From Candidatus Latescibacterota bacterium (GTDB taxonomy: Bacteria > Latescibacterota > UBA2968 > UBA8231), in contig CBDFJF010000001.1 of the NCBI GenBank assembly GCA_965248265.1, positions 2,208,001 to 2,272,000 of the forward strand: a DNA stretch of 64,000 nucleotides, in the 5' to 3' direction. The notes under the pieces were generated by a model. The model made no database searches. It was not told the DNA's origin and worked only from the letters and a program-made list of their open reading frames with translations. Below are positions 1,362 to 28,675 of this stretch, in pieces. Numbering within the stretch: the stretch's first letter is position 1; each line of letters opens with the position of its first letter. Position numbers and translations under genes: made by a program.

Positions 1362-1368
1362 GTGCGGA

Positions 1369-8333: not shown

Positions 8334-10852
8334 CGTTCGACATGACGACGCCCCAGGATCCACAGCCTGGCTGGTCGGTCAGCCCTCGCTTGGCCATCGC
8401 CGTCCTGCTCCTGCTGTCGACGGCGGCGCTGGCAGCGCGCGTCATGCCCATCTGGTCCCAGATTTTCCCCGCACCGGGGCACGTCCGCCTTCTGGGTGTG
8501 GACCCGTATTACCACCTTCGGCACGCCCGCTTCGTTGCCGACAACATCCCGCACCTGCAGCGCTGGGACGTCGGCACACACTACCCGGACGGGCAGTGGT
8601 CTGACGCTGCGGGTCTGTTCGATCTCGCGATGGGCTCCGCCGCGTGGTTGATCGGCCTGGGCGACCCCACGAACGACCTCGTCGACCGCGTGGTCGCCTG
8701 GACGCCGCCGCTACTTGCCGCGCTGTCGATCTGGCTGTTGTACCTGCTTGCCCGCACAATGCTCGATCGGCGGACGGCTCTGCTAGCCGCCGCGATCTTT
8801 TTGATCTACCCGGGCTCTTCGTTACATCGGTCTCTACTCGGTTTTGCCGATCACCACGTCGCCGAAATCGTCCTGGCCCTGCTGACCGCCTGGGGGTTGA
8901 TGCGCTGTCTGCAGACTGGCGAATCCTCAAAGCCGGTGCCGCCATGGTGGCGACCGGCGTGCGAGTACGCCTGGCCTTTGGCCATCTTCCTGTTTACGTG
9001 GGTCGGCGCGCCGATATACGTGTTGCTCGTGTTTGTGGTGCTGCTAATCGTCGCCACAGTGGAGATCGCCCACGGCGGAGATTCCAACGCTGCGGCACAC
9101 GGCGGACTGCGCTACGGCAGTGCCCTGCTGCTTATGGTAGGGGTGTCCTCCGTCCTGTGGCCGGACCTGGTGATGTCCCCGAAACGTTTCTCCCCCGCGC
9201 TGCTGGGATGCGCGGCAGTGGCACTCGTACCGGCCGCTTACGTGTTCGCCGCACGCCGGCTCCTGCGCCGGCTGAATCGACCACGCCTCATCGCCTTCTT
9301 CGCGGCGGCTGTCGTCGTCGTTCTCGCTGCCCTCTTCATGGCGCACGCGGACCAGGCCCGCCATCTCGCCGCGCTGCTGCTGACGCCCAAACGCTCGGCA
9401 CTTACCGAGCACCTCGTCATCGACTGGCGCCTTTACGGAAAGCTGCTGGGAGCACCGGGGCTCCTGGCCCTGGCTGCCTTGCCCCTGGGACTGTGGCGGG
9501 CTGTTCGGCGTCCCGGCGACCGCTTCTGCCTGGTACCGCTCCTCTTCGGGGTGCTGCTCATAGGGCTCTGGCTCAGAACGCACGATTATGACTATGCCCC
9601 TCCTGTTTTCGTAGCCCTGATGGCCGCTTTCGTGACGGCGGAGGTGGCCGGCCGCATCCCGGCGCGGCACGTCGCGTGGATGCGCTGGGTGGGTTCCACG
9701 ACGCTCGCGGCGCTCTTGCTGTGCCCGATCTGGCCGTTACGGCTGGTGGCGATGCCCATGGCAACGGCCCGGATGGCCACCAACCACTCAATGACCACGC
9801 AGGCCTGGGAGCAGGCCATGACGTGGATGCGTCAAAACACACCGAAGCCTTCGCTACCGGTCGATACCCGGGTGGAGCCGTTTGGAGCCGGATTCGACTA
9901 CCCGCCTGGCACCTACGGGGTCTTCACTGCCTGGGATTTTGGCAACATCGTGAACACCTTGGGAGAACGGGTACCGGTGTGGAGCCGGTGGCCGTCCGCT
10001 CGCACAGCCATGTGGATTGTGAGCGAGGACGAGGAGGAATCGCTCGGCTTGTTGTGCCCTGGCTGCGAGGAAGGCGAGGAGGTCCGCTATGTCGTTCTGG
10101 AGGCCCGCACCATCGCCCAGCATTTCCTGGGCAAGGTCCTGGCAGCCGGCCGTCAGCTCAGGGACTATGACACTGGGAGAGAGAACTGGCAGTCACTCGA
10201 AGAGGACGAGAAGATCCTGAATCGCACATACGGTCACAAGTACGAGCGGTCGATGGCGGTCCGTCTGTTCCGGGATGACGCCCGCCACCTCGGACACTAC
10301 CGGCTCGTGTACGAGTCTCCCCGCGAGAGCTACATTACGTACCAGCTGAAGTTGGGGACCAACACCCTCAGGCGGCTCGCCTACGATATCAAATCCGACA
10401 GGCAGCGCGAGGTCGTCACCGGTCGCGCCCGAACAGGACAGGTGACCCGCTTCGGAAACCACTATCAGTACGATGGCATCGTGACGCCTTCGGTCAAGAT
10501 CTTCGAGGTCGTACAGGGCGCGCGCCTGACGGGTGAGGCACGCGCCGGAACGGCAGTGGAGGCTCGCCTGGAACTGCGCTGCGGGTCCGGCGGACGCAGG
10601 GTGGATTACGTCAGATCCGTCGTAGCCGGATCAGACGGCCACTTCGACCTCGTGGTCGCGCACTCCTCCGAACCGGTGACAGACAACGCGACCTGCGAGG
10701 CCATCGGACCCTATTCCCTGTTCGTACGCAACACCCTTGAGAGTGAGATGGTGCCGGCAGGAACCGTCGCCATCTCGGTTCGGCAGGTCCGCGATGGTGC
10801 CCACGTCGATTTAGGTAGATTTTTGGAAGAATGGAAGAGACCCCCGAAATAG
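8330..10852 (+). CDS. STT3/AglB-type oligosaccharyltransferase (archaeal-like architecture)
   Basis: G.DPYYH.R...P....D..T.YP.G N-terminal motif, many TM helices, DHH.AE, A..W...NTP, AWDFG (WWDYG equivalent), L.HYRLVYES, VKIFEVV.GA.L.G; ATG 8330 after AGGGGAG. Confidence 0.85.
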   Translation: MTFDMTTPQDPQPGWSVSPRLAIAVLLLLSTAALAARVMPIWSQIFPAPGHVRLLGVDPYYHLRHARFVADNIPHLQRWDVGTHYPDGQWSDAAGLFDLAMGSAAWLIGLGDPTNDLVDRVVAWTPPLLAALSIWLLYLLARTMLDRRTALLAAAIFLIYPGSSLHRSLLGFADHHVAEIVLALLTAWGLMRCLQTGESSKPVPPWWRPACEYAWPLAIFLFTWVGAPIYVLLVFVVLLIVATVEIAHGGDSNAAAHGGLRYGSALLLMVGVSSVLWPDLVMSPKRFSPALLGCAAVALVPAAYVFAARRLLRRLNRPRLIAFFAAAVVVVLAALFMAHADQARHLAALLLTPKRSALTEHLVIDWRLYGKLLGAPGLLALAALPLGLWRAVRRPGDRFCLVPLLFGVLLIGLWLRTHDYDYAPPVFVALMAAFVTAEVAGRIPARHVAWMRWVGSTTLAALLLCPIWPLRLVAMPMATARMATNHSMTTQAWEQAMTWMRQNTPKPSLPVDTRVEPFGAGFDYPPGTYGVFTAWDFGNIVNTLGERVPVWSRWPSARTAMWIVSEDEEESLGLLCPGCEEGEEVRYVVLEARTIAQHFLGKVLAAGRQLRDYDTGRENWQSLEEDEKILNRTYGHKYERSMAVRLFRDDARHLGHYRLVYESPRESYITYQLKLGTNTLRRLAYDIKSDRQREVVTGRARTGQVTRFGNHYQYDGIVTPSVKIFEVVQGARLTGEARAGTAVEARLELRCGSGGRRVDYVRSVVAGSDGHFDLVVAHSSEPVTDNATCEAIGPYSLFVRNTLESEMVPAGTVAISVRQVRDGAHVDLGRFLEEWKRPPK

Positions 10853-10874: not shown

Positions 10875-12683
10875 ATGCTAACGCATCTCAAGAAATGCGC
10901 CGCGATGGTGCCCCGCGAGATGCGGCTCCAATGGGGGTCGGTGGTCCCGTTGATTTTGCTGACGGCGGCTACCGAGTCTGCTGGCGCAGCGGTCGTCTAT
11001 GCGCTGGTGAAGATTGTCGCGGACCCGTCCCGCGTGGCTGAAATTCCGGTAGCTGCGACCATCGCCGCGTGGCTGCCGTGGCAGGACCGGGCGTCGGTCG
11101 TCGCTGCATTCGCGACCGTGGCTGCGTTGTTCTACGTAACGAAGAACGCGGTCCTGATCTGGGTGGGCACCACGCGTACCAGAATTGAGGTCAAATCGGT
11201 GGCCTTGCTGGCCAGCCGCATGTTCAGAGGGTACCTGATGACACCGTACCCCTTCCACTTCCGTCGCAACTCCGCCGACCTGATCCGCCAGACCAATCAG
11301 TCGGTGAATATGATGTTCAGCGTGCTCTCGTCCAGCGCCACAGTGGCCTCCGAAATGCTCGTCACTCTGGGGTTCGTCGTAGTTCTGATGTTTGCGGCCC
11401 CGGGAAACACGCTCATCGCCGGCGCACTCCTGGCAGGGTTGCTGGCCCTTTTGCTCAAACTCGTACGGCACCGCACGATCCAGCTGGGCACGCGGGGGCA
11501 TCACCTTCGTATGGCCCTCGTGCAGAGCGTCCAGCAAGGACTGGGTGCCATCAAGGAAATCAAAGTACTCGGCCGCGAGCGGCACTTTGACGACGCGCAT
11601 GCGAACGGCCAGGCGGAGCTCTCACATGTACTGGTGTCGAGGGCGCGGCTGGATGCCATGCCGCGCCTGGTAACCGAATCCGCCTTCGCCGTTGGTGCAT
11701 TGATCGTGGTCGTGCTGATGACCTGGAACGGCGGCCCCGCGTCGGACGTCACCCCTCTGTTAGGCTTGTACGGCTATGCCGCGCTGCGGTTGCTGCCGTC
11801 CGCCAACCGCATGCAGTGGTTGCTTAACGAGATCCGCTACCACAGCACTGTCGTGGACCAGTTGTACGCAGACTTCCTGTTCGTCAACCGCCAACCAAAC
11901 GTGGATCGCGATGCTCCCCCGGAGGGCGACCCGGGGTTCAGCGCACTGGTGCTCGATCGGGTTGGCTACGTATACGATGGCACCGAGACGCGGGTTTTGG
12001 ATGATGTCCACCTCACCATCCCGGCCGGCGAGTCAATCGGCGTGGTCGGCCCGACGGGCGCTGGCAAGAGCACCCTCGTCGACGTGATCGTCGGCCTGTT
12101 GAGTCCATCTACCGGACGAATCACTGTCGATGGCGTCGATCTTTCTCGGCGGTTGTCGTGGTGGCAGCGACGAATCGGCTATGTGCCGCAAGAAACCTAT
12201 CTCGTCGATGACAGTCTCCGCCACAACATCGCTCTGGGCATTTCCGATGAAGAGGTAGACGACGACAGTATCCGTGCCGCTGCTCGGATGGCGCAGCTGG
12301 ACGAGTTCGTGGCCTCGCTGCCCGAAGGATTGGGTACCTTCGTCGGGGAGCGCGGCATCAGACTCTCCGGCGGGCAGCGGCAGCGCGTAGGGATTGCCCG
12401 CGCACTCTATCATCAGCCAGATGTGCTGATCTTCGACGAAGCCACCTCGTCGTTGGACAACGCCACGGAGGCCGAGGTCACGAAGGCCATTGAAGCGCTG
12501 TACGGCGTGAAGACGTTGGTGGTGATCGCACATCGTCTGACCACGGTTCAGCGTTGCGACCGGTTGGTGCTTCTCGAAGGCGGACGCGTCGCCGCGAGCG
12601 GCACGTTTGATGAACTCATGCACAGTTGCGCCGCGTTCCGCCGCCTTGCCGTGCCCGACGAGCAGTCTCAACATCCTGCTTGA
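10875..12683 (+). CDS. ABC transporter (TMD+NBD), PglK/MsbA-like lipid-linked oligosaccharide flippase
   Basis: GPTGAGKST, LSGGQRQR, DEATSSLD, AHRL; TMD with IKEIK and RLLPS motifs; directly after the OST. Confidence 0.8.
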   Translation: MLTHLKKCAAMVPREMRLQWGSVVPLILLTAATESAGAAVVYALVKIVADPSRVAEIPVAATIAAWLPWQDRASVVAAFATVAALFYVTKNAVLIWVGTTRTRIEVKSVALLASRMFRGYLMTPYPFHFRRNSADLIRQTNQSVNMMFSVLSSSATVASEMLVTLGFVVVLMFAAPGNTLIAGALLAGLLALLLKLVRHRTIQLGTRGHHLRMALVQSVQQGLGAIKEIKVLGRERHFDDAHANGQAELSHVLVSRARLDAMPRLVTESAFAVGALIVVVLMTWNGGPASDVTPLLGLYGYAALRLLPSANRMQWLLNEIRYHSTVVDQLYADFLFVNRQPNVDRDAPPEGDPGFSALVLDRVGYVYDGTETRVLDDVHLTIPAGESIGVVGPTGAGKSTLVDVIVGLLSPSTGRITVDGVDLSRRLSWWQRRIGYVPQETYLVDDSLRHNIALGISDEEVDDDSIRAAARMAQLDEFVASLPEGLGTFVGERGIRLSGGQRQRVGIARALYHQPDVLIFDEATSSLDNATEAEVTKAIEALYGVKTLVVIAHRLTTVQRCDRLVLLEGGRVAASGTFDELMHSCAAFRRLAVPDEQSQHPA

Positions 12684-14852: not shown

Positions 14853-15806
14853 CTAGAGCCGCGGCAACCGTCTGCGCACTTCACTCACGACGACCCTGCC
14901 CAATCGTTTCGCCGTGGACCCTATCTGATACGTTATAAACTCTCGAGCCTTCGCCCCCGCGCGCGACCCGATTGGCCTTTGAGTCCTCGCGAGGACCTCC
15001 TCAATAGCATTGAGAATTCGATCTGGATGATTCGCTTGAGGGGCGTGACCCTGGGGATAGCAGGGCTGCTGCAGATAGTCCATGTATTTACTGTCGTCAC
15101 TATCAACGTCGATCACGTGCTGAACCAAATCCTCCATCGAAGAAAAATCGTGGAAATTGATGAATCGGCGCGTATTGAAATCGCGACCCACCCAGTCGTT
15201 CCCCCAATAGATTGGTAGAGACTCGGCTAACAGGGCATCTGTGAGTTTTTCGGTCGTGTAACCACGGTAGGAAACATTCTCGAAAGAGATAACGAATTTG
15301 CACTCCCGGTAGAACTCAAGCTTGTCTTCGACACGCCCCCCTACGTTATTGAATAGCTTTCCACCAGCGCGAACGGGCCTGTAACTCGACAACATCCTGA
15401 ACAACTGATTTCTCTGATCACACCGGTGATTCGAGTACAGGAAAGCGCAGAAGTGTTTCTTTTGATCGAGAATTCGATGCGGATCTTGCGGGGGGTCGCC
15501 TTCGAGTGACTCGATGGCGCCCAGTGCGTAGAGAGGGAGACGGTACTGTCGGTCCTCATACGGCATGTGGTCGAAAGAAAATGCGAAGTCGCACTCTTGG
15601 AAACGAGGGGGCCGTGCTTCTCCGGTATAGAAAATTCGCGAGCAGCTGAATCGTGTGAATCTGTGGCCAAACGTTGCGTAAATCAACAGCTCGGGCCGCG
15701 GACTCACTTCAACTTCGAACCTCCGGCGAAGCAGTCGCGAAAAGTAATTGTCCTCGACGTCAAAGCCGGGCCAAAAATCAGAGTAGTTTACTAAGAGTCT
15801 GCGCAT
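14853..15806 (-). CDS. GT10 alpha-1,3-fucosyltransferase-like
   Basis: DFWPGF, YTGE, FC.F.YSN, KF.ISFEN....GYTTEKL..A......PIYWG. Confidence 0.88.
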   Translation of the reverse strand: MRRLLVNYSDFWPGFDVEDNYFSRLLRRRFEVEVSPRPELLIYATFGHRFTRFSCSRIFYTGEARPPRFQECDFAFSFDHMPYEDRQYRLPLYALGAIESLEGDPPQDPHRILDQKKHFCAFLYSNHRCDQRNQLFRMLSSYRPVRAGGKLFNNVGGRVEDKLEFYRECKFVISFENVSYRGYTTEKLTDALLAESLPIYWGNDWVGRDFNTRRFINFHDFSSMEDLVQHVIDVDSDDSKYMDYLQQPCYPQGHAPQANHPDRILNAIEEVLARTQRPIGSRAGAKAREFITYQIGSTAKRLGRVVVSEVRRRLPRL

Positions 15807-16130
15807 ATAGGGTGGGCACTGGGAGACAATCACATGACGTTCTATAGTCAGTCCGGTCAAGATCGGTTTCTTGATTCGAAAATCTTCCACAAACTCTCCG
15901 GACGCCGCAGACGGTCAACCCTCGAAACCTGCAAACGGTTCACGTGCGGGTGTGTGGGTGGGGCTGCAGGAAATATCCGCTCGCGCGAGGGGAACAAAAT
16001 CACGCATCCTCAAAGCGCTCGGCAATCGCTCCCCGTCTGTCACGCTCCTCCCTCCCTCGCAAGTTAACCACGGGCAACTGTCAGGCGGAATCGAGCTTGT
16101 CGGGGTGCAGGCCATTCGCCTCACAGCCGC

Positions 16131-17013: not shown

Positions 17014-17763
17014 TCAATGCGGGGATTCCAAGAGGCGGCGAAACGATTCACGGATAAATCTGGCGGTACGCCTGACCTTCACTCTTAGAGTAAAGCGATG
17101 AAAGAACACATCACCCAAGAAGGACTCGATGATGTTGCTCCACGACTGACGATCGGACATCCCTCCGGCTCTCATGACAACGGTGACTTCATCAGAGAGG
17201 TGATATCGTGCCTTGGGATAATGTTGGATTCCAAACAATGCATCGGAAATGATCCGAAAGCGCTCGTTGTAGAGCCCGACTCGATCGTAAAACGCTCGTC
17301 TGATGAACGTTCCCGGATGGGGGAAGTTGTAGTGCCGTTGCTCAGAAATGTACCTCGGCACCCATGTGTGACCTGCACCGATCTCAGGCGTCTCGATCCT
17401 GATCGCGGTCGCGATCAAGTCGTACCCGGGGCGCGTGATTCTTGCCACGTGATACAACACGGACGCGTCGGCGTAGCGATCGTCAGAGTTGAGGATGTGG
17501 ATCCACTCACCCGATGCCAGGGCAATCCCCTTGTTCATCGCGTGATACGCCCCTCGATCTGGCTCGGAGATCCACTTCATTCTGCCCTCGAATCGGGGTC
17601 CGTGTTGTCTCAGTATTTCTACCGTTTGGTCGGCTGAATCACCATCGACGACGAGGTATTCATAGTCATCGAATTCCTGATCGAGGACGGATTCCAGTGT
17701 GTCGCGGATCGTGTCAGCACTGTTCATCGATACAGTGATTATGGTGAAGAGCGGCTGGCTCAT
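17014..17763 (-). CDS. GT2 glycosyltransferase (WcaE-like)
   Basis: TIITVS.N, DG.S.D.T, ISEPD.G.Y.AMNKG, LNSDD. Confidence 0.88.
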   Translation of the reverse strand: MSQPLFTIITVSMNSADTIRDTLESVLDQEFDDYEYLVVDGDSADQTVEILRQHGPRFEGRMKWISEPDRGAYHAMNKGIALASGEWIHILNSDDRYADASVLYHVARITRPGYDLIATAIRIETPEIGAGHTWVPRYISEQRHYNFPHPGTFIRRAFYDRVGLYNERFRIISDALFGIQHYPKARYHLSDEVTVVMRAGGMSDRQSWSNIIESFLGDVFFHRFTLRVKVRRTARFIRESFRRLLESPH

Positions 17764-17964
17764 CTCACTGCCGTCGTGCCGGGATGGGTCGGGCCTCGTG
17801 GGAGCTGCTGCACTCGAGGCAAGGGGTTTACTGTTTGTGGGCCCCAGCAGCAAAATAGGCCGGTCGGCGTTGAGCAGACCTCTCTCAACCAGTCTGAAAA
17901 ACTCTGCGTTCTCCCCATCCAATCACCACCTGAGACAAGAGGTCACGCCACTCGCCGGCTTTCG

Positions 17965-18762
17965 TCATCTCGATTTCACGAACACGAAGTTAGCACCGTA
18001 ACGATCCACCTCGGTGAATCCACGAGCCTTGATCAGCTCTCCGAGGGCCGGCACATCGTATCGGGTTGCCCTGAACGTCGTGGGGTGCAACTCGATGATC
18101 ATCCAGCTGCAAAGCGCTAGACTGTCCTCGTCCGCCAGAAAGAGCCCGGCCTCGGCGCCTTCGATGTCCGATACAAGACAGAACTCACCGAAGTCGTACC
18201 GCTCGAGCAAGCTCTTCAGGGTAACGCACCGCACCTCGTCCGAATCACTGTCAGGCTGATCGGGCGAAGCCAGCCGACCTCCCAGATGATAGGCATTCTT
18301 GACAAACCGCACCCGCTGATCGATGACTTGGTCGTACGCAATCGCTGCGTTCACCACGTCCACGTGCCCTCCGCAATTTTCAGCGGCGGTTCGTTCGAGT
18401 AGCCTGAAGAGGTCCTGATCCGCCTCGACGCTAATCACTCTCCGCGCGTTCCTACACACCTGAGTCGTGATCACTCCGATGCCGGCGCCGAGCTCGATCA
18501 CGTTCGCCTCAGAAGGAAGGTAGCGCCGCACGAAAGTCGCTTCAGCGCGCTCGTAAAGGCGAAAGAAAATTGAAGCCTTCGTCCCCGGAGACATCCTCGC
18601 GTGCCCAACGTCTATGGCACATCCGTAGAATGGAATCCGGTCCCCGAAGAGCCGACCGACCAGGCGCCCGACCCACGGCAACGTCAGGCATGTCGTGACG
18701 ATCTTCTTGAGCCTCGGGGGCACGAACCTCCGCACCCAGTTTCCCACGATCACGCGTCTCAT
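17965..18762 (-). CDS. FkbM family methyltransferase
   Basis: VIELGAGIG, VEAD, DIEGAE, IIELHP. Confidence 0.82.
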   Translation of the reverse strand: MRRVIVGNWVRRFVPPRLKKIVTTCLTLPWVGRLVGRLFGDRIPFYGCAIDVGHARMSPGTKASIFFRLYERAEATFVRRYLPSEANVIELGAGIGVITTQVCRNARRVISVEADQDLFRLLERTAAENCGGHVDVVNAAIAYDQVIDQRVRFVKNAYHLGGRLASPDQPDSDSDEVRCVTLKSLLERYDFGEFCLVSDIEGAEAGLFLADEDSLALCSWMIIELHPTTFRATRYDVPALGELIKARGFTEVDRYGANFVFVKSR

Positions 18763-19035: not shown

Positions 19036-19812
19036 ATGCTAATTAGTCTAAGATCGCTATGTACCAAACATGGTATTGAAAGCTTCGGAGTGCTTCATAT
19101 CGGTGCCCACAAGGCTGAGGAGCGAGACGAGTATAAGAAGTGCGGAGCATCCAAAGTTATTTGGATCGAAGCAGATCCTGATCTCGCGAATCAACTGAAG
19201 GCCAAGATTTGCGAGAGTGAATCAATCTTCGATGAGGAGAGAGTTTTCAACCACGCAATCTTCGATGTGAACGGCAAGACGATGGACTTCAACGTGACCA
19301 ATAATACCGAGGCTTCTTCGCTACTGGACCTGGGTACACACAGGAAATCGTATCCGGAAATAGTGGTTGATAGGACCGTCAGTGTGGTTGTGAGACGAAT
19401 TGATTCGCTCGATAAGGAATACCCGGATTTATTGGACTCTCTAGACTTCCTCAATTTGGACATACAAGGGGCGGAATTTCCAGCCCTGGTCGGATTTGGA
19501 GACTCCATAAAGCAGTTCAAATGGATCTACACCGAAGTAAACAGGAAGAATGTCTATTTAGGAAATGGCATGATCTGGGATATTGACAATCTGCTTTTGC
19601 AATATGGCTTTTTCCGGAAAGATACCGTCTTTACTTATCAGTACTGGGGCGATGCTTTCTATGAAAAGCGAACCGATTTAGCTGATGTTCGCCGTTTCAT
19701 ATACAAGGCGAGGATTCGTTTTCAGTACCTATGGTGGGCTATAGCAGATTTGCCAGTACCAAAACTCATGATCAGGGCCCTGAACAAGACCAAGCGCCTG
19801 ATCGTGAATTGA
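19036..19812 (+). CDS. FkbM family methyltransferase
   Basis: GVLHIGAH, SSLL, LNLDIQGAE, IYTEVN, WGDAFY; visibly more AT-rich than its flanks. Confidence 0.88.
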   Translation: MLISLRSLCTKHGIESFGVLHIGAHKAEERDEYKKCGASKVIWIEADPDLANQLKAKICESESIFDEERVFNHAIFDVNGKTMDFNVTNNTEASSLLDLGTHRKSYPEIVVDRTVSVVVRRIDSLDKEYPDLLDSLDFLNLDIQGAEFPALVGFGDSIKQFKWIYTEVNRKNVYLGNGMIWDIDNLLLQYGFFRKDTVFTYQYWGDAFYEKRTDLADVRRFIYKARIRFQYLWWAIADLPVPKLMIRALNKTKRLIVN

Positions 19813-19831: not shown

Positions 19832-20764
19832 ATGCGACTAACCGTTGCGATATGTACTTGGAACCGGGCAAGCTTGCTTGATCGGACTCTGGCACGGATC
19901 GCGCAAGATGAGACGACTGGACTAGAATGGGAAGTACTGGTCGTCAACAACAACTGTACAGATGACACAGATGCTGTGATCGCACGACATCAGCGGCACC
20001 TGCCGGTGCGCCGGATACTGGAGCGCAGGCAGGGCCTCTCCAACGCCCGCAACGCTGCCGCGATGGCGGCGCGCGGAGATCTTATCGTATGGACTGACGA
20101 CGATGTCCTTGTCGGCGACGGCTGGTTGCGTGCGTACGAACGGGCCGCCCGCCTGTACAGTGAGAGTTCCTTCTTCGGGGGACCGATAGTCCCGGAGTTC
20201 GAAGGCGCGGCACCGAAGTGGCTCATGGCTGCTCTGCCACACGTAGGGGGTGTGTACGGTACGCTCGATCTGGGTGTGGAAACTCACGAGCTCACCCCTT
20301 CCGCCCTGCCCTTCGGTGGGAACTTCGCGGTTCGGACTGCAATTCAGCGATCGTACTTGTATGACCCGGATGTTGGCCGCATTGGGAAGGGCATGTTGAG
20401 CGGGGAAGAAACGACGGTCATGCTCCGGATGCTTGGCGACGGGTACAGTGGACAGTGGCTCCCCGACGCCACACTCCAACACTTCGTACCACGAGAGAGA
20501 CAGACCGCAAGACACATTCGGAGATACCACAGCGGCAGCGCGGAGACACAGGAGCGACGTCGGCCTTGCGGCAAGGGACCGTTGATTTTCGGGAGACCCA
20601 GGGGTCGCCTTTGCAGGCTCGTCATCGCAGAGTTGTGGTACCGCATCCGACGGCTGTCCTCACCTCCTGAGGTTTGGATCAAGGACCTGATCAGAGTAGG
20701 CTGCCTGGAGGGGGAGTGGCGTGGTTTGACGCCGCCGAGCGCAAGACCGTGCGCTGGGGCCTGA
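19832..20764 (+). CDS. GT2 family glycosyltransferase
   Basis: TVAICTWNR, NN..TD.T, GLSNARN, TDDD. Confidence 0.88.
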   Translation: MRLTVAICTWNRASLLDRTLARIAQDETTGLEWEVLVVNNNCTDDTDAVIARHQRHLPVRRILERRQGLSNARNAAAMAARGDLIVWTDDDVLVGDGWLRAYERAARLYSESSFFGGPIVPEFEGAAPKWLMAALPHVGGVYGTLDLGVETHELTPSALPFGGNFAVRTAIQRSYLYDPDVGRIGKGMLSGEETTVMLRMLGDGYSGQWLPDATLQHFVPRERQTARHIRRYHSGSAETQERRRPCGKGPLIFGRPRGRLCRLVIAELWYRIRRLSSPPEVWIKDLIRVGCLEGEWRGLTPPSARPCAGA

Positions 20765-22062: not shown

Positions 22063-22086
22063 CCAAGCGCCAGCGGCGGGGGCACC

Positions 22087-23058
22087 TCATTGGTGCTCGG
22101 TGGAGACCTTCCTCACTTGCTCCTCGATCCACGGATAGGTCTCGCCGATTCCGTCCCGCACAGTGTACTTCGCCGACCATCCCTGCGACATGATCTTGTC
22201 GACCTTGTGATACCTTGCCTGTACGCCGACCGGCCCTTCGACGTACTTGATGCCGATCTGCTTGCCGGCTACCTCGGCCACGGTATCCACCAGTTCCTGG
22301 ACTGTCGTCAGCTCGGTGCTGCCAATGTTGGTCGGTTCAGTAACATCTGATTGCATCAGTGTGTATATGCCAGTGCACATGTCTGCGACGTAGGTGTATA
22401 CTCGCAGCGCGCTCCCATCTCCCCACACCTCGATCTCGTCGCCATCGCTGGCCATCGCGACCTTCCGACACAGGGCGGCAGGTGCCTTCTCGCGCCCGCC
22501 TCGCCATGTGCCTTCCGGCCCGTAGCAATTCTGGAAACGGGCGATACGGACATCCAAACCTCGGTTTCGCGAAAACGCCAAAGCCACACGTTCTGCGTAC
22601 AGCTTCTCCCAGCCGTACTCATTGTCGGGCAGGGCCGGATACGCATCTTCCTCTGCGATGTACGATTCACCCTGCTGCTGGTCGCGATACACACAGGCTG
22701 ATGAAGAAAGGAAGTAGCGACCAACTCCTGCGTTGCAGGCTTCACTCACCATGTGAAGGTTGGCCAGCCCGCTGTTGATCATGATCTCGCATTCGGCCGA
22801 ATGGATGAAACCCATCCCTCCCATGTCGGCGGCGAGCTGGTAGACTTCGTCAAAATCGTCACGGCCATCAAACGCCACCGCCCGTTCGCAGTTACCGCGA
22901 TCCCGCAGGTCGAGCAGCTGGAAATCATCGGCACTCGACGCGGAGAACTCCGGCTCTTTCAGGTCTACGCCTCTGACCCAGTAGTCTCGAGCTTTCAGGA
23001 ACCGGACGAGATGATGGCCAATGAAGCCACCGGCGCCGCAGACAAGTGCCTTTTTCAT
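22087..23058 (-). CDS. NAD-dependent epimerase, GDP-mannose 3,5-epimerase-like
   Basis: GAGGFIG, LAADMGGMGFI, SSACVY, YGWEKL, GGREKAPAA.CRK. Confidence 0.88.
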   Translation of the reverse strand: MKKALVCGAGGFIGHHLVRFLKARDYWVRGVDLKEPEFSASSADDFQLLDLRDRGNCERAVAFDGRDDFDEVYQLAADMGGMGFIHSAECEIMINSGLANLHMVSEACNAGVGRYFLSSSACVYRDQQQGESYIAEEDAYPALPDNEYGWEKLYAERVALAFSRNRGLDVRIARFQNCYGPEGTWRGGREKAPAALCRKVAMASDGDEIEVWGDGSALRVYTYVADMCTGIYTLMQSDVTEPTNIGSTELTTVQELVDTVAEVAGKQIGIKYVEGPVGVQARYHKVDKIMSQGWSAKYTVRDGIGETYPWIEEQVRKVSTEHQ

Positions 23059-23284
23059 GAGTAAGACCTTTCGTGCGCTACCTCGAAAACGGTGGAGTGT
23101 GACCGGTGCTCTCAAACATGGCGGATTGAAGCGAAATCCCCAAAGCTTCAAGCGTGTCCCCACGTGGCATAGACAGCTCTACGGATTTCAGCATAGATTC
23201 TCTCCTTCCATGCCCGGCGTCCACCGTTGCGCCTTTCCAACACCTTAGTGGTAGCTCCCCATAGGGGTTGACGCTCCGACTCAC

Positions 23285-24757
23285 ATGACCACCTGCATAG
23301 TCGCCTTTCTAATCGCGTTTTTCGTGTCAATTGTCATTACTCGGTCGATTATCCGCGTTGCCGTCCGTCTCGACTTCGTGGATAAACCTGACTACGTACG
23401 AAAGTTTCACCAAAACGCCGTGCCGTGTGTAGGTGGCGTAGGCATCTTCATCGCGTTCTTTGTGCCCGTCGCAGCACTGTTCTTCTTCTACAAGAATTTC
23501 ATCTCCGAGCAGCTACTGCACCTTCCCATAGAACTTCTGGGTCTGACGGCAGGAGCGACCATCGGGTTGGGACTGGGATTTTTTGACGACGTCCGCGGCT
23601 TGCGCATGCGCTGGAAGCTTCTGCTTCAGGCTGTTGCAGCGACTGCGGCCTTCGCCACCGGTTATGCGATCGCTGAGATCAGTATACCGTTTGTTGGTGT
23701 GATTGAAGTAGGGGTCATCAGCTATCCTCTCACTCTGTTTTGGTTCTTGGGCTGTATGAACGCTCTGAATTTTCTTGACGGACTGGACGGGCTGGCAGCC
23801 GGTGTGAGTTTGCTGGTGTCGATTACGCTGTTTTTGGTCAGTCTCATTTTTGAAAACCGGGTCGGCATGGTGCTGTCGATCAGTCTGGCTGGAGCTATCC
23901 TGGGTTTCCTGCTCTACAATTTCCACCCTGCACGCATTTTCCTTGGTGACTCGGGCAGCATGCTCCTCGGATTCCTGATCGGGGCCCTGTCGATTCTGGC
24001 AGGTAGAAGCACCGAGAACACGACGACCGTCTCACTTTTCATTCCCCTTATCGCCCTCGGTTTGCCGATCCTGGATACTTGTCTCGTGATTGCCCGACGC
24101 TGGTTTCGCAGGGTTCCTATCGCCGAGGCTGACCGCCGTCACATCCACTACGCTCTGATCTCGATGGGCCTGAGTCACAAGCGCACGGTCCTCATTCTCT
24201 ACCTGGCCAGTGTTGTATTCGGTGTTTGCGCCCTGTTGATCACATTTGAGCGAGGCGAGGTGGTCATCCTGGTTCTTGGAGCAATGTGTATTATCGGCTT
24301 TGTTTGTGTGCGCGTGTTTGCTGGAGTGACGATGGCTGCTCTTTTCAGCAGAGGGTTTGACGCCGGTGCCAGATCCGCACTGGAGAGGGCGCTGCTGGAA
24401 ATGCACGTTGAAGACACCCCAGAGCGTGTCTGGCGTTGCTGTCACCCAGTGTTGGCAGCGGTCGGGTTAGACCGGGCCGAACTGCATCTGCTTGACGAGG
24501 TCTCAGCACAGATGACGATATTGCGATGGACCCGAACGGATGATGCCGAGCCAAGTGATCCTGTACCCGGCAGTGGCGATCATTGGTCCGCCAATCTCAC
24601 GATCTATTCGCCGACTTCCGACATCAAGGGAGAATTGGTCGTGGCCAAGACGTCGCGACTCGGACATCGGGCAAGCCTGGCTTCAGAAGTCCTCGACACG
24701 TTACGCCTGGCCCTAGGCGCAAACCTGGAACGCCTCAAAACACCCCCTGAGTCATAA
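23285..24757 (+). CDS. WecA/TagO-like polyprenyl-phosphate GlcNAc-1-P transferase (MraY-like family) with soluble C-terminal extension
   Basis: RK.H...VP..GG, G..DD, NFLDGLDGL, NFHPA.IFLGDSGS, D..HIH. Confidence 0.9.
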   Translation: MTTCIVAFLIAFFVSIVITRSIIRVAVRLDFVDKPDYVRKFHQNAVPCVGGVGIFIAFFVPVAALFFFYKNFISEQLLHLPIELLGLTAGATIGLGLGFFDDVRGLRMRWKLLLQAVAATAAFATGYAIAEISIPFVGVIEVGVISYPLTLFWFLGCMNALNFLDGLDGLAAGVSLLVSITLFLVSLIFENRVGMVLSISLAGAILGFLLYNFHPARIFLGDSGSMLLGFLIGALSILAGRSTENTTTVSLFIPLIALGLPILDTCLVIARRWFRRVPIAEADRRHIHYALISMGLSHKRTVLILYLASVVFGVCALLITFERGEVVILVLGAMCIIGFVCVRVFAGVTMAALFSRGFDAGARSALERALLEMHVEDTPERVWRCCHPVLAAVGLDRAELHLLDEVSAQMTILRWTRTDDAEPSDPVPGSGDHWSANLTIYSPTSDIKGELVVAKTSRLGHRASLASEVLDTLRLALGANLERLKTPPES

Positions 24758-24787
24758 CCCAAGCAAAGAGGAAGAAAGAGCATCGGA

Positions 24788-25963
24788 CTATCTCGAGAAA
24801 TCCCTTACGACTGTCCGCAGCTGATCCACGAACCGATCTGCCGAGAACAACTCCTTCCGGCTCAACACATACTCGCTGAGAGAAATTTGTAGTTCTGAAT
24901 CTGAAAGAACCCGGTCGATCCTGTGAACTGCCTGTTGCACATTTCCGTAAAGTAGCCGTTCATCTCCACCGACGATCTCTACGGGCCCCCCCTCGTCTGG
25001 CACGAACACGATGCACCCGGCCCGCTGCAGCTCCGCCACCACAATTCCGAAGTGCTCGCCTGCCATGCCGTGAATTCCATATCTGTTGTTTGCCATCAGG
25101 TCGACGAGTTCGCCGCGCGGCAAATCTATATGAATGTTCACCCAGGTTTGATGGCGTGCAGCCAGTTCAAAAACGGCACGTGTATAGGGTTTACTATCGG
25201 GGGTTCCGACCAGGTGAAAGTTAATATCGTGTCCTCGCTCACGCACCTGAGCGAGGATTTCAATCAGCTTGAGCTGATCCTTTTCTGGGGAAATACGGCC
25301 GACGCAGACGAAGCCATTGTCGCGCTCTATCCAGGGCACTTCGGGGAAGAACCCTGGAACTGGCGGATACAACGTCGTCGAATCAACACAGTACGCCTCG
25401 TGCATCTTGCCGGCGATGTAGTCAGAATTCACCAGCGACAGGTTTTTCCGCATGCCATCAACATCGAACCCACCGATAGCCAACTTGCACGTTGCCCTAT
25501 AGCCTTCCAGCAGTGCAGCGGGGGCGTGATACCAGCGTAGATCCACCTCGGGGCGCGGCAAGTAACCCCACGGGAAGTGAATGTACTGAATACCTCGCTG
25601 TCCGAAATCGACCTCGTTGGCGGTACTGATGACCGCATCGTAGTGGTGGGTCTTCAGGTGCGCTTTTGTGGCTCGGAAGAAGAGGCACATGTGCAGCAAG
25701 CTCAGTGGTGTGGGCGCCACATCCAACAGGGCATGTAGGCCAGTATTGGTGAGGTGTAGTCTGAAATCGGAAGGCTTCAATGACGTGCCGAAGAATCTGT
25801 TGACTGCGTTACAGTCGCATGGCTTCGTGGTCAACAGGGAGACATCGTAGCAACCCCGCAGGGCCTGCAATACCCACGAGGCGACCGCGTTGCTGCCTCC
25901 AGGCGGTTGCAGGGACGGCTGAGTGACAAGCACTTTTTTTCTGGTACGAGTGCTTTCACTCAT
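24788..25963 (-). CDS. GT4 glycosyltransferase, ALG11-like
   Basis: YIHFP, VNS, LYPP, RISPEK and EHFGIVVAE parallel ALG11 YVHYP, NS, YPP, RPEK, EHFGI.VVE. Confidence 0.7.
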   Translation of the reverse strand: MSESTRTRKKVLVTQPSLQPPGGSNAVASWVLQALRGCYDVSLLTTKPCDCNAVNRFFGTSLKPSDFRLHLTNTGLHALLDVAPTPLSLLHMCLFFRATKAHLKTHHYDAVISTANEVDFGQRGIQYIHFPWGYLPRPEVDLRWYHAPAALLEGYRATCKLAIGGFDVDGMRKNLSLVNSDYIAGKMHEAYCVDSTTLYPPVPGFFPEVPWIERDNGFVCVGRISPEKDQLKLIEILAQVRERGHDINFHLVGTPDSKPYTRAVFELAARHQTWVNIHIDLPRGELVDLMANNRYGIHGMAGEHFGIVVAELQRAGCIVFVPDEGGPVEIVGGDERLLYGNVQQAVHRIDRVLSDSELQISLSEYVLSRKELFSADRFVDQLRTVVRDFSR

Positions 25964-25965
25964 TG

Positions 25966-27288
25966 TCAATACCCCAGCAACCCTGCTCGTGCGTGTTTCC
26001 GCCAACTCTCATCCCAGCTTTGTTGCCGGCAACCGGCAACTCCGAGGCGCAACTCGTCCAGTAGCGGGGTGTCGGTTGGGAAGCCACTGAACAACTCGCG
26101 CAACTGCTCTTTCAATTCGGCCGGACCATCGAAAACCAGTCCGTTCACTCGATGTTGGACCTGCTCTGCCAGACACGGTCCGTAGTTCAAGGCGGACACG
26201 GGTAATCCGGCGCCAAACATGTCCATGATTTTCATCGGCAGGTCTACCTTGGACGACGACCGGTGGAGGCATAAGCCCAGATGCACAGCTCCAAGCAAGC
26301 GTTGGTACTCGCGGTACGGCAACCACAGCGTGCGCAGATGGACCCGTGACGGAGGCAGTCGCATGGCCTCACGTTCGAAAGCCATCTGCCCAGGACCCTT
26401 TCCCGTGATTAGAATCACGAAATCGGGCATCGCCTGGTCATATTCTTGTGCTGCTATTTCCAACAGTAACGAGACCTCTTCATCATAGGTCCAACTCGTT
26501 GGACAGACGATCCACACCGGTGGCCGTGGCGTTATCGGCAATTCGAGCTCCTGACGAAGCCGCCCGAGCAACTCGCGGGCCGGCTCTGGTGCGGTTGGCT
26601 CGAATCCCTGCGCGGGTCGATCATAGAGCAGAACAGGATCGGCAAACCCCCACCGCTGGGTCAGTTGAGCTTGCATCGCGGCTGAAACACACAGGTGATG
26701 ATCCGCCCTGCCGCCGCATGTTCGTTCCAACCATTGGTGGAGGAATACCAGCGGGCTTCGCCGTCCCAGCCGGAGGGCGACCATCGAATAACCGTAATTG
26801 TGCCAATCGATGACGTACCTGGCCGAGCGCAGACGCGCGACAACGAATGCTACCAGCAGAGTCGGTATTGATGGTGGATTCTGCACGAACACAGTATCGG
26901 GACTTCTGAGGCCGAACAGCAGGGCCCGCGTAAGTTGGATCGTATCCTGCAGTACTCTTACAACTGAGTGCATGACGAACAGCAGTCGGTTCCTACGCAT
27001 GAAGTCACTGGCCGAGGTCCGACGGAGCGCGTGGACCCTGATCATGGGATGATTCTCAACTGCATCAAACAAGTCGGTTTCCGCATAACCTACGAGGTCG
27101 ACCGCCGCCCCGGCATCGGCCAGAGATCGGGCGTGGTACTGCATTCGCGGGCTGCGGCCCAAGTCGCCCAGAACCACGATCGCCACCCGGTGTGCTGGAA
27201 CGGACTGTAGGTGATCCGGTATCAATTTCTGAGTCGTCAGTATCCCGAGTACCCTCACGCGAACCCCAGGCAGTTCCCGGGGACGCAA
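25966..27288 (-). CDS. ALG1-like (GT33) chitobiosyl-diphospho-lipid beta-1,4-mannosyltransferase
   Basis: VLGDLGRSPRMQYHA.SLA, QNPPSIPTL, IDWHNYGYS, LYDRP, TSWT.DE, ITGKGP, LG.CLH.SSS..DLPMK..DMFG; true start may be ~20-30 codons later. Confidence 0.88.
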   Translation of the reverse strand: MRPRELPGVRVRVLGILTTQKLIPDHLQSVPAHRVAIVVLGDLGRSPRMQYHARSLADAGAAVDLVGYAETDLFDAVENHPMIRVHALRRTSASDFMRRNRLLFVMHSVVRVLQDTIQLTRALLFGLRSPDTVFVQNPPSIPTLLVAFVVARLRSARYVIDWHNYGYSMVALRLGRRSPLVFLHQWLERTCGGRADHHLCVSAAMQAQLTQRWGFADPVLLYDRPAQGFEPTAPEPARELLGRLRQELELPITPRPPVWIVCPTSWTYDEEVSLLLEIAAQEYDQAMPDFVILITGKGPGQMAFEREAMRLPPSRVHLRTLWLPYREYQRLLGAVHLGLCLHRSSSKVDLPMKIMDMFGAGLPVSALNYGPCLAEQVQHRVNGLVFDGPAELKEQLRELFSGFPTDTPLLDELRLGVAGCRQQSWDESWRKHARAGLLGY

Positions 27289-27460
27289 GTGGTGACGTCA
27301 GGCCTGGAAGCAAGATACGTCCCCTCTGGTTCGGCGCCATATAGCCGCCGGCTGTTTCGATATAGACGTGGGCTCCGACGCCCGGCTGATTGTTTATTAT
27401 TGATGCACGGCTGCTTGACATGCAGAAGGTCGCCACCCGTTGCCAATCATTGGATGCCGC

Positions 27461-28648: not shown

Positions 28649-28675
28649 CTACTGCAATTTCGTCAACCTAACCAG

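What the first reader, a model, noticed from the sequence alone, without database searches (positions are those of the whole stretch)
25966..27288. Bacterial gene carrying the eukaryotic ALG1 (GT33) motif set in order
Seen: VLGDLGRSPRMQYHA, QNPPSIPTL, IDWHNYGYS, LYDRP, TSWT.DE, ITGKGP and CLH.SSS..DLPMK..DMFG are colinear. Known: these are the signature blocks of yeast/human ALG1, the beta-1,4-mannosyltransferase acting on GlcNAc2-PP-dolichol, a family regarded as mostly eukaryotic. There are no introns, and the flanking genes and base composition look bacterial. It could be a eukaryote-to-bacterium transfer or a prokaryotic sister clade.
Basis: partly seen in the sequence, partly recalled or inferred. 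Interest (0 to 1): 0.82.

Follow-up and report, generated by a model that had tools for sequence, protein, structure and literature searches.

The report
Bacterial ALG1-type mannosyltransferase in glycosylation island
This is a genuine bacterial relative of the eukaryotic ALG1 mannosyltransferase, a kind already reported in bacteria in a 2025 preprint, and it sits in a gene island that also encodes an archaeal-type enzyme for attaching sugars to proteins.

Summary
ORF 25966-27288 (-) carries every listed motif in order. It matches named eukaryotic ALG1 proteins at E about 1e-82 and 38-45% identity over its full length.

It is not a recent transfer from a eukaryote. It lies inside a deep, diverse bacterial clade, separated from a eukaryote clade by a fully supported branch. 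Relatives were found in 189 bacterial species genomes.

It is not new as a kind. A 2025 bioRxiv preprint reports 204 bacterial ALG1 homologues and shows beta-1,4-mannosyltransferase activity for 3 of 5 tested.

What I add is context. In 80 related loci the gene sits near:
- an STT3/AglB oligosaccharyltransferase (42 of 80)
- a MurG paralogue (44)
- an ABC exporter (48)
- a WecA-type initiating transferase (37)
- an ALG2-like GT4 (27)

The window holds a reduced set: an AglB-type transferase at 8264-10852, the ABC exporter, WecA and a GT4. No MurG paralogue or ALG2-like gene was found in its genome.

ALG1 was found in 0 of 60 relatives, so the gene was probably acquired from another bacterium.

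Most likely role: cytoplasmic mannosylation of a lipid-linked glycan destined for transfer to protein.

The parts
25966..27288 (-). ALG1/GT33-type glycosyltransferase. 440 aa as the longest ORF; the likely true start is GTG at 27186 or 27177, giving about 403-406 aa.
   Evidence: motifs; 38-45% identity to named eukaryotic ALG1. (tree). (AF2 pLDDT 91.2, GT-B fold). (start).
24788..26005 (-). GT4-family glycosyltransferase ('GT4n'), same strand as the ALG1-like gene and immediately downstream. Specificity undetermined.
   Evidence: PF00534, 64.5 bits. (homologues carry only generic names). (atlas: generic GT4). A member of this family lies near the ALG1-like gene in 27 of 80 loci.
23285..24757 (+). 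WecA/ALG7-type polyprenyl-phosphate HexNAc-1-phosphate transferase with an extra C-terminal region of about 150 aa.
   Evidence: PF00953, 139.4 bits. (TIGR02380 wecA 116 bits, below cut-off). Present in 37 of 80 loci.
22087..23163 (-). NDP-sugar epimerase/dehydratase-family enzyme. Best match is GDP-fucose synthase-like, below cut-off.
19832..20764 (+). GT2 glycosyltransferase.
   Evidence: PF00535, 72.2 bits.
19036..19812 (+). FkbM-type methyltransferase.
   Evidence: PF05050, 50 bits.
17965..18762 (-). FkbM-type methyltransferase.
   Evidence: PF05050, 30.7 bits.
17014..17922 (-). GT2 glycosyltransferase.
   Evidence: PF00535, 84.2 bits.
14853..15890 (-). GT10 alpha-1,3-fucosyltransferase-type enzyme, in the lower-GC segment (14-20 kb, GC 0.52-0.53).
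   Evidence: PF18025 91.9 bits, PF00852 74.9 bits..
10875..12683 (+). ABC exporter of the PglK/MsbA/HepA type; candidate flippase for the lipid-linked glycan.
   Evidence: (PglK model 261.6 bits, MsbA 260.1, HepA 266, all below cut-offs). Present in 48 of 80 loci.
8264..10852 (+). AglB/STT3-type oligosaccharyltransferase of the archaeal 'long' architecture. The WWDYG motif is degenerate, reading AWDFG.
   Evidence: (PF02516 70.6, PF22627 27, PF18079 44.8 bits). (TIGR04154 315.7 bits, full length, below the 450 cut-off). (A. fulgidus AglB-L 3WAJ, E 2.1e-25, catalytic motifs aligned)..
7353..8333 (+). GT2 glycosyltransferase immediately upstream of the oligosaccharyltransferase.
   Evidence: PF00535, 111.8 bits.

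Best explanation
The ORF encodes a soluble or peripheral GT-B glycosyltransferase of the ALG1 (CAZy GT33) family, from the bacterial branch of that family.

[quoted passage not shown] That acceptor is started by the neighbouring WecA-type transferase.

The co-oriented downstream GT4, and the GT2, GT10 and methyltransferase genes of the same roughly 20-kb island, would then extend and decorate the glycan. The ABC exporter would flip it. The AglB-type oligosaccharyltransferase, 15 kb away, would most likely pass it to protein asparagines.

Shown: family membership, fold, gene neighbourhood, co-occurrence with oligosaccharyltransferases, and patchy distribution among relatives.

Inferred: donor, linkage, acceptor, flipping, and protein as the final acceptor.

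The gene, and probably the island, was most likely acquired from another bacterium and not from a eukaryote.
For: Family:
- E 1e-82 class matches and 38-45% identity to named eukaryotic ALG1.
- Invariant motif blocks.
- The only such gene in its genome.
- GT-B model with pLDDT 91.2.

Activity precedent: 3 of 5 bacterial homologues complemented yeast alg1 and made Man-GlcNAc2 in vitro (section read).

Context across 80 related loci:
- Oligosaccharyltransferase 42, MurG paralogue 44, ABC exporter 48, WecA 37, ALG2-like 27, GT4n 27.
- MurG paralogue + ALG2-like + oligosaccharyltransferase together in 21.
- All five of WecA, MurG paralogue, ALG2-like, oligosaccharyltransferase and ABC exporter in 10.

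Further links:
- In all 5 genomes checked whose ALG1 locus had no oligosaccharyltransferase within 10 kb, an STT3 gene over the Pfam cut-off lies elsewhere. The 10 bacterial control genomes have none, and only 3 of 61 genomes (the window's own plus 60 relatives) do.
- 26 of the 39 nearby oligosaccharyltransferases of 600 aa or more have a canonical WWDYG motif.
- ALG1-like is fused to an ALG2-like GT4 in 3 of 8 long forms scanned.

The window's own oligosaccharyltransferase aligns to A. fulgidus AglB-L with the Asp and Asp-x-His metal-site motifs in register.

Bacterial acquisition:
- ALG1 found in 0 of 60 relatives (36 same family, 24 same class) at E<=1e-20.
- The window groups with three metagenome relatives inside the bacterial clade.
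Against: - The window's genome lacks two partners common elsewhere. Its only GT28 is a MurG-HEAT fusion next to MraY, and its best ALG2-like hit scores only 51.7 bits. A GlcNAc2 acceptor and a Man3 core are therefore not supported for this organism.
- Its oligosaccharyltransferase has AWDFG, and the paralogue has PWDFG, in place of WWDYG. It lies 15 kb away, across a lower-GC, IS-fragment-bearing segment.
- In the preprint the Methylomirabilota and Deltaproteobacteria homologues were inactive in both assays. Family membership therefore does not guarantee this activity.
- 10 of 80 loci showed none of the partner genes. Among the 45 loci with at least 6 kb on both sides, only 20 had an oligosaccharyltransferase within reach.
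- No glycan, glycoprotein or expression data exist here.
Confidence: 0.6

Rival explanations
1. It is an ALG1-family enzyme that serves a polysaccharide pathway (capsule, exopolysaccharide, O-antigen-like or S-layer O-glycan) and not Asn-linked protein glycosylation. Alternatively it uses a different acceptor, for example a single GlcNAc-PP-lipid or a non-GlcNAc sugar.
For: - No dedicated MurG paralogue or ALG2-like gene was found in this genome.
- The oligosaccharyltransferase is 15 kb away and has a degenerate WWDYG motif.
- The island is full of GT2, GT10 and methyltransferase genes, typical of variable surface-polysaccharide loci.
- Two of five bacterial homologues did not use GlcNAc2-PP-phytanyl.
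Against: - Strong co-occurrence of ALG1-like genes with STT3-type oligosaccharyltransferases across phyla.
- The window's own island contains an oligosaccharyltransferase and an ABC exporter side by side.
- I did not search for a Wzy polymerase or O-antigen ligase, so this rival is not excluded on that ground.
Confidence: 0.27
2. The gene was acquired recently from a eukaryote (eukaryote-to-bacterium transfer).
For: - High identity (38-45%) to eukaryotic ALG1.
- The gene was not found in 60 relatives, so some transfer did occur.
- In the free quick tree one bacterial row, L054, fell among the eukaryotes.
Against: - A 100* branch separates the window and the other 38 rows on its side from the eukaryote rows.
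- With eukaryotes held as one clade the likelihood is 12.9 units higher (p-AU 0.694).
- With a GT4 outgroup the eukaryotes are one 100* clade nested among bacterial rows (the root is weak).
- The window lacks the eukaryotic linker insertions.
- Its nearest relatives are bacterial or metagenomic at 50-85% identity.
- Even L054 sits in a bacterial operon with an ABC exporter, a GT28 and an oligosaccharyltransferase.
Confidence: 0.03
3. The gene is on the contig through chimeric assembly or contamination.
For: The genome is flagged 4.38% contaminated. The gene is unique among its relatives.
Against: - The contig is 3.18 Mb.
- Short-read contigs from three runs cover 21000-29500 with no differences. 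One 3255-base contig (22936-26190) joins WecA, the GT4 and the 3' end of the gene. Another (26817-29500) joins its 5' part to the amidase and sigma-factor genes.
- GC is typical of the window.
- Caveat: the runs come from one sample, probably the source of the assembly. Two short unitig overlaps (26165-26190 and 26817-26836) lie inside the gene.
Confidence: 0.02
4. It is a generic GT4 glycosyltransferase whose resemblance to ALG1 is superficial.
For: Pfam sees only generic GT4/GT1 domains. The nearest solved structures are retaining GT4 enzymes (MshA, BshA, PglA, WaaG) at 10-16% identity.
Against: - Pfam has no ALG1-specific model, and no ALG1 structure is in the PDB.
- The full-length E of about 1e-82 to named ALG1 proteins compares with 3e-11 to the Pfam GT4 domain.
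- No other GT4 in the genome reaches E<=0.001.
- The GT4 outgroup branch exceeds 3 substitutions per site.
Confidence: 0.02

Closest known systems
Eukaryotic ALG1 (chitobiosyldiphosphodolichol beta-1,4-mannosyltransferase, CAZy GT33)
   Same: Colinear over the whole catalytic length. 38-45% identity. 96 invariant columns in a 7-sequence alignment, including all the signature blocks. GT-B fold.
   Different: - No N-terminal membrane anchor. In my sample only the animal and glomeromycete sequences have one.
- Lacks the eukaryotic interdomain insertions.
- Sits in a bacterial operon, and the lipid carrier would be a bacterial polyprenol.
- Activity untested.
Bacterial ALG1 homologues of bioRxiv 10.1101/2025.10.15.682550 (Gammaproteobacteria, Polyangia, Binatia, Deltaproteobacteria, Methylomirabilota)
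   Same: Same family and the same taxa as in my locus set. Three of these were shown to make Man-GlcNAc2-PP-lipid and to complement yeast alg1.
   Different: - The window's protein belongs to a separate long-stemmed subclade. Its only close kin are three unnamed metagenome proteins at 71-85% identity, and it is at most 53% identical to the rest.
- Its genome lacks the MurG paralogue and the ALG2-like partner.
- The preprint's main text says nothing about gene neighbourhood or oligosaccharyltransferases in these bacteria. Its supplementary tables could not be seen.
Campylobacter pgl N-glycosylation locus (PglB, PglK, PglC, PglA/J/H/I); description recalled from general knowledge
   Same: Same logic: an initiating phosphoglycosyl transferase, cytoplasmic GT-B transferases, an ABC flippase and an STT3-family oligosaccharyltransferase. 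The window's ABC exporter scores 261.6 bits on the PglK model. PglA is among the structural neighbours.
   Different: - The oligosaccharyltransferase here is archaeal AglB-long type, with AglB_core and AglB_L1 domains and a match to TIGR04154, not PglB.
- The initiator is WecA/ALG7-type.
- The first extension enzyme is ALG1-type.
Archaeal AglB-dependent N-glycosylation (A. fulgidus AglB-L, PDB 3WAJ)
   Same: The window's 862-aa oligosaccharyltransferase aligns over residues 45-574 and again in the C-terminal domain. GVDPYYHLR, GFADHH and the WWDYG position are in register.
   Different: - The host is a bacterium, shown by RecA, sigma-70, PBP5 and MraY/MurG.
- The motif reads AWDFG.
- According to the preprint, archaea lack reliable ALG1 homologues.

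Membership tests
ALG1 / CAZy GT33 | Significant full-length sequence similarity to characterised eukaryotic ALG1 | tested here: met
   P0150 at E 1.5e-82 and 43% identity. One search names P0150 as an oomycete beta-1,4-mannosyltransferase and lists many 'chitobiosyldiphosphodolichol beta-mannosyltransferase' entries, plus one 'Glycosyltransferase Family 33 protein'; 38-40% identity to primate, Brassica, Rhizophagus and oomycete sequences.
ALG1 / CAZy GT33 | Conserved signature blocks (GDxGRSPRMQYHA, QNPP, DWHN.GY, TSWT.DE, TGKGP, H.SSS..DLPMK..DMFG) | tested here: met
all present and invariant or nearly so.
ALG1 / CAZy GT33 | Forms a clade with ALG1 proteins apart from GT4 enzymes | tested here: met
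   ALG1-like rows (eukaryotic and bacterial) are separated from 7 GT4 outgroup rows by a 99* branch longer than 3 substitutions per site; no paralogue in the genome at E<=0.001.
ALG1 / CAZy GT33 | GT-B fold | tested here: met
   (pLDDT 91.2, two Rossmann-like halves). (top hits are GT-B enzymes, TM 0.6-0.75).
ALG1 / CAZy GT33 | Inverting transfer of Man from GDP-Man to GlcNAc2-PP-polyprenol (beta-1,4) | not testable with these tools
   Precedent only: 3 of 5 bacterial homologues were active and 2 inactive.
ALG1 / CAZy GT33 | N-terminal transmembrane anchor (as in yeast and human ALG1) | tested here: not met
   no hydrophobic segment before the first motif in the window or in any of the 8 bacterial or metagenomic rows printed. 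It is also absent from the plant and stramenopile ALG1 sampled, so it does not define the family.
OST-dependent N-linked protein glycosylation system | STT3/AglB/PglB catalytic subunit with metal-site Asp motifs and WWDYG | tested here: inconclusive
   full-length AglB-type protein with GVDPYYHLR and GFADHH. The WWDYG motif is degenerate (AWDFG; paralogue PWDFG).
OST-dependent N-linked protein glycosylation system | Initiating polyprenyl-phosphate sugar-phosphate transferase in the locus | tested here: met
   PF00953 at 139.4 bits, wecA-like.
OST-dependent N-linked protein glycosylation system | Flippase for the lipid-linked oligosaccharide | tested here: inconclusive
   the ABC exporter next to the oligosaccharyltransferase scores alike on the PglK, MsbA and HepA models, all below cut-off.
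OST-dependent N-linked protein glycosylation system | Asn-linked glycoproteins | not testable with these tools
   No proteomic or glycan data. No RNA run is listed.
Eukaryote-like cytosolic LLO module (ALG7, ALG13/14, ALG1, ALG2) | Dedicated GT28 (MurG/ALG13-14-like) enzyme for the second GlcNAc | tested here: not met
   Own genome: the single GT28 is a MurG-HEAT fusion next to MraY. Elsewhere: 44 of 80 loci have a paralogue, which is additional to MurG in 4 of 5 genomes checked.
Eukaryote-like cytosolic LLO module (ALG7, ALG13/14, ALG1, ALG2) | ALG2-like GT4 partner | tested here: not met
   Own genome: best hit 51.7 bits. Elsewhere: 27 of 80 loci, and fused to ALG1-like in L054, P0160 and P0198.

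The most novel reading that the evidence does not exclude
Several bacterial phyla (Binatota, Methylomirabilota/Rokubacteria, Acidobacteriota, Myxococcota, some Pseudomonadota and Verrucomicrobiota) carry compact operons that together encode a counterpart of every cytosolic step of the eukaryotic N-glycan precursor pathway up to Man3GlcNAc2:
- WecA, matching ALG7
- a MurG paralogue, matching ALG13/14
- ALG1-like
- ALG2-like, sometimes fused to ALG1-like

The same operons also carry an ABC flippase and an STT3/AglB oligosaccharyltransferase with a canonical WWDYG motif.

These bacteria would then make eukaryote-type Man-GlcNAc2-core Asn-linked glycoproteins. Such an operon, and not single genes, could be the kind of source from which part of the eukaryotic pathway was assembled. 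The window holds a pared-down, horizontally acquired derivative of this system.
Probability: 0.45. Interest if true: 0.8.

Novelty: new member of a known kind. Interest (0 to 1): 0.5.

Why it matters
On its own the gene is one more bacterial ALG1 homologue, a kind already reported.

Lombard (2016) called the origin of ALG1 unknown, possibly a eukaryotic innovation. The 2025 preprint argues for bacterial ancestry from single-gene data.

The neighbourhood analysis here adds that bacterial ALG1 genes are not orphans. They travel with oligosaccharyltransferases, MurG paralogues, ALG2-like enzymes and flippases. This makes a testable prediction of eukaryote-like N-glycans in uncultured soil and sediment bacteria. 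It also gives a concrete operon to reconstitute in E. coli.

For glyco-engineering, soluble bacterial ALG1/ALG2 pairs with a matching single-subunit oligosaccharyltransferase would be useful parts.

Tried and rejected
- PDB sequence search with the ALG1-like protein found nothing at E<=1. The fold search gave only generic GT4 neighbours. No mechanistic residues could therefore be transferred from a solved structure.
- NCBIfam gave only a sub-threshold WcaI match.
- I tried to name the neighbouring GT4 as ALG2 or ALG11. JGI names it generically and the atlas gives generic GT4 clusters, so its specificity is left open.
- The organism could not be named. Genome handles are anonymous and the close homologues are unnamed metagenome proteins.
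- Rooting with a GT4 outgroup gave a root among bacterial rows. The outgroup branch is very long and the relevant supports are unstarred, so I use it only as weak support for bacterial paraphyly.
- The placement of L054 among eukaryotes in the free quick tree was not upheld.
- Sequencing runs: no RNA holder is listed, so nothing can be said on expression. Runs X5 and X6 hold only small shares. X5 covered 7 of 30 bins, mostly conserved parts, and was not used.
- Literature searches and a term search inside the preprint found no text describing ALG1-like genes next to oligosaccharyltransferases in bacteria. This covers only the held open-access library.
- I did not search for Wzy, Wzx or O-antigen ligase genes, and I did not look for sequon-rich target proteins.

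Papers and how much of each I saw:
- bioRxiv 10.1101/2025.10.15.682550: outline, sections 5, 9 and 10, and passages.
- PMC4973528: passages and section 14.
- PMC3797821 and PMC8993221: passages only.
- All others: search listings only.
Full report
**Observation**

One search lists a 440-aa ORF at 25966..27288 on the minus strand.

Pfam sees only generic GT4/GT1 halves (PF13579 at 44.3 bits, PF13439 at 34.4, PF13692 at 31.6). NCBIfam gives only a sub-threshold WcaI match. No PDB chain matches by sequence at E<=1.

An exhaustive phmmer search of 1.84 billion representatives gave 3610 hits at E<=1e-3, 1904 at E<=1e-10 and 865 at E<=1e-30. Hits of 440-550 aa that align in two stretches proved to be eukaryotic ALG1:
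- P0150 (E 1.5e-82, 43% identity) is named Beta-1,4-mannosyltransferase of the oomycete Globisporangium.
- A search seeded with P0150 returned many 'chitobiosyldiphosphodolichol beta-mannosyltransferase' entries from animals, plants, fungi and stramenopiles, including one 'Glycosyltransferase Family 33 protein'.

In a 7-sequence alignment the window protein is 38-40% identical to primate, Brassica, Rhizophagus and oomycete ALG1, with 96 invariant columns.

**Gene model**

- Close relatives start at 'MAIVVL' or 'VVL'.
- The database copy of this protein is 403 aa.
- GTG codons lie at 27186 and 27177.
- Residues 1-20 of the long ORF are disordered in an otherwise confident AlphaFold model (pLDDT 91.2, pTM 0.88).

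The real protein is therefore about 403-406 aa and has no membrane anchor. In my sample an N-terminal hydrophobic anchor occurs only in animal and glomeromycete ALG1, not in plant, stramenopile or bacterial sequences.

The model is a GT-B fold. Its nearest solved structures are retaining GT4 enzymes (MshA, BshA, PglA, WaaG, PimB') at 10-16% identity.

**Is it bacterial and correctly assembled?**

Flanking genes are an amidase, a sigma-70 factor, Hsp20, a bacterial RecA and a PBP5-type carboxypeptidase. GC at the gene is 0.602, typical of the window. The contig is 3.18 Mb, in a 7.32-Mb two-contig genome.

Short-read contigs from three runs of one sample cover 21000-29500 without a single difference. 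They join the gene to both neighbours (22936-26190 and 26817-29500). These runs probably come from the source sample, so this is consistency and not independent proof.

**What is already known**

Lombard (2016) could not place ALG1 and suggested it might be a eukaryotic innovation (passages).

A bioRxiv preprint of October 2025 (10.1101/2025.10.15.682550) reports:
- 204 bacterial ALG1 homologues by BLAST, and no reliable archaeal one (section 5).
- Homologues from a gammaproteobacterium, a Polyangia and a Binatia MAG complement yeast alg1 and make Man-GlcNAc2 from GlcNAc2-PP-phytanyl.
- Homologues from Deltaproteobacteria and Methylomirabilota failed both assays (section 9).

JGI already labels many of the metagenomic homologues 'beta-1,4-mannosyltransferase'. 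As a kind, then, a bacterial ALG1 is not new.

**Distribution and phylogeny**

A scan of one genome per prokaryotic species found 189 genomes encoding a relative. The 80 best are all bacterial MAGs. They come from Binatota, Acidobacteriota, Methylomirabilota/Rokubacteria, Myxococcota and Pseudomonadota, with single or double cases labelled Verrucomicrobiota, Planctomycetota, Cyanobacteriota and Actinomycetota.

Quick IQ-TREE of 56 rows:
- A 100* branch separates the 16 eukaryotes (plus one long-branch gammaproteobacterial row, L054) from the other 39 rows.
- The window groups (100*) with three unnamed metagenome proteins of 71-85% identity, on a long stem.

Follow-up tests:
- Holding the eukaryotes as one clade gives a tree 12.9 log-likelihood units better than the free search found (p-AU 0.694). 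The odd place of L054 is therefore not supported.
- With seven GT4 outgroup rows the eukaryotes are a 100* clade nested among bacterial rows. The outgroup branch is very long and the deep supports are unstarred, so the root is only suggestive.

The window protein lacks the interdomain insertions of eukaryotic ALG1. A recent eukaryote-to-bacterium transfer is therefore very unlikely for this gene.

Among the window genome's 60 relatives (36 of the same family, 24 of the same class, 75-100% complete), none has the gene at E<=1e-20. An STT3 gene over the Pfam cut-off is found in only 3 of 61 genomes, counting the window's own. The gene, and probably the island, came in by transfer from another bacterium.

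**Neighbourhood in the window**

The ALG1-like gene is followed on the same strand by a GT4 gene (24788-26005), and a WecA-type transferase gene (23285-24757) converges on the pair.

Upstream, in order, lie:
- an NDP-sugar epimerase-family gene
- GT2 genes
- two FkbM methyltransferases
- a GT10 fucosyltransferase-type gene
- a PglK/MsbA-type ABC exporter (10875-12683)
- an 862-aa oligosaccharyltransferase (8264-10852)

The oligosaccharyltransferase carries STT3, AglB_core and AglB_L1 domains. It matches the archaeal TIGR04154 model over its full length (315.7 bits, below the 450 cut-off). It aligns to Archaeoglobus AglB-L (3WAJ, E 2.1e-25), with GVDPYYHLR, GFADHH and the WWDYG position in register. 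Its motif reads AWDFG.

A paralogue elsewhere in the genome reads PWDFG.

The 14-20 kb stretch has lower GC (0.52-0.53) and is bordered by an IS1595 zinc-ribbon fragment. That looks like a variable insert.

**Neighbourhood elsewhere**

In the 80 related loci (up to 10 kb of flank; many contigs are shorter), profile searches found near the ALG1-like gene:

| Partner | Loci of 80 |
|---|---|
| STT3-family oligosaccharyltransferase (24 window type, 18 second clade) | 42 |
| GT28 MurG-type gene | 44 |
| ABC exporter | 48 |
| WecA | 37 |
| Window-type GT4 | 27 |
| Second GT4 type | 27 |
| GT28 + second GT4 + oligosaccharyltransferase together | 21 |
| All five of WecA, GT28, second GT4, oligosaccharyltransferase, ABC | 10 |
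| None of these | 10 |

Among the 45 loci with at least 6 kb on both sides, 20 have an oligosaccharyltransferase.

Further points:
- The GT28 gene is additional to a canonical MurG in 4 of 5 genomes checked.
- The second GT4 type is ALG2-like. Its nearest language-model clusters are named 'Alpha-1,3/1,6-mannosyltransferase ALG2', both bacterial and eukaryotic (a lead, not an alignment).
- That ALG2-like type is fused to the ALG1-like domain in L054, P0160 and P0198, which is 3 of 8 long forms scanned.
- 26 of the 39 nearby oligosaccharyltransferases of 600 aa or more have a canonical WWDYG.
- In Rokubacteria the ALG1-like and oligosaccharyltransferase ORFs overlap by a few bases.
- All 5 genomes whose ALG1 locus lacked a nearby oligosaccharyltransferase encode one elsewhere. 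None of the 10 bacterial control genomes does.

I found no paper describing this association (searches; term search of the preprint).

**Interpretation**

The window's gene is a bona fide bacterial ALG1-family enzyme. Its most likely job is to add mannose from GDP-mannose to a GlcNAc-ended polyprenyl-diphosphate glycan begun by the neighbouring WecA. The glycan would then be extended, flipped by the ABC exporter and transferred by the AglB-type enzyme.

The window's genome is atypical in four ways:
- No dedicated MurG paralogue. The only GT28 is a MurG-HEAT fusion beside MraY.
- No ALG2-like gene.
- A degenerate oligosaccharyltransferase motif.
- Two of the five homologues assayed in the preprint were inactive.

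So the exact acceptor, and protein as the final target, remain inferences. I put 0.6 on the overall explanation and 0.27 on a polysaccharide or other-acceptor role.

**Verdict**

The gene is a new member of a known kind. The more interesting product of this check is the conserved bacterial operon that pairs ALG1-like and ALG2-like enzymes with a MurG paralogue, a flippase and an STT3/AglB oligosaccharyltransferase. That deserves a dedicated study.

Noticed in passing
window 8264-10852 (+); paralogue at L086:8807-11395 (own genome, contig 1): Two 862-aa archaeal-type AglB 'long' oligosaccharyltransferases in a bacterial genome. Their WWDYG motifs are degenerate (AWDFG and PWDFG). STT3 over the Pfam cut-off is found in only 3 of 61 genomes, counting the window's own and its 60 relatives.
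   Followed up: partly
L005, L013, L016, L032, L035, L046, L047, L056, L063 and others: Compact bacterial operons combine WecA, a MurG paralogue, ALG1-like, ALG2-like, a further GT4, an ABC exporter and an STT3/AglB oligosaccharyltransferase. They occur in Binatota, Rokubacteria/Methylomirabilota, Acidobacteriota, Myxococcota and Pseudomonadota MAGs.
   Followed up: partly
L054:9989-12394 (+); P0160, P0198: Natural fusions of an ALG1-like domain with a complete ALG2-like GT4 domain (about 800 aa). This echoes the ALG1-ALG2 complex of eukaryotes. P0196 instead carries TPR repeats in front of the ALG1-like domain.
   Followed up: partly
L085:9238-11340 and 11368-12474 (own genome, contig 2): The genome's only GT28 is a 700-aa MurG-like protein fused to HEAT repeats. 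It is followed by MraY and flanked by BatD/VWA and RecG genes, not by a division and cell-wall cluster.
   Followed up: partly
window 14001-20000; 13675-14160 (-): A lower-GC segment (0.52-0.53, against about 0.6 on either side) holds the GT10 fucosyltransferase-type gene, a GT2, two FkbM methyltransferases and two ORFs without any Pfam match (14167-14841, 16131-17051). An IS1595 zinc-ribbon fragment borders it. It looks like a swapped-in variable cassette.
   Followed up: no
window 12-1361 (+), 1276-2418 (+), 2415-3365 (+): An ORF with only weak TPR matches runs in from the window's left edge (possibly the C-terminal part of a larger protein). A GT2 and an LPG_synthase_TM-family membrane protein follow it. 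This may be a second glycosylation module.
   Followed up: no
window 23285-24757 (+): The WecA-type transferase has about 150 extra C-terminal residues with no Pfam match. Relatives in other loci align only over the N-terminal 35-50% of the protein.
   Followed up: no
window 32783-34153 (-): The longest RecA ORF has about 80 residues before the RecA domain and a long Lys/Ala/Ser-rich tail. The N-terminal part may be a start-codon artefact.
   Followed up: no
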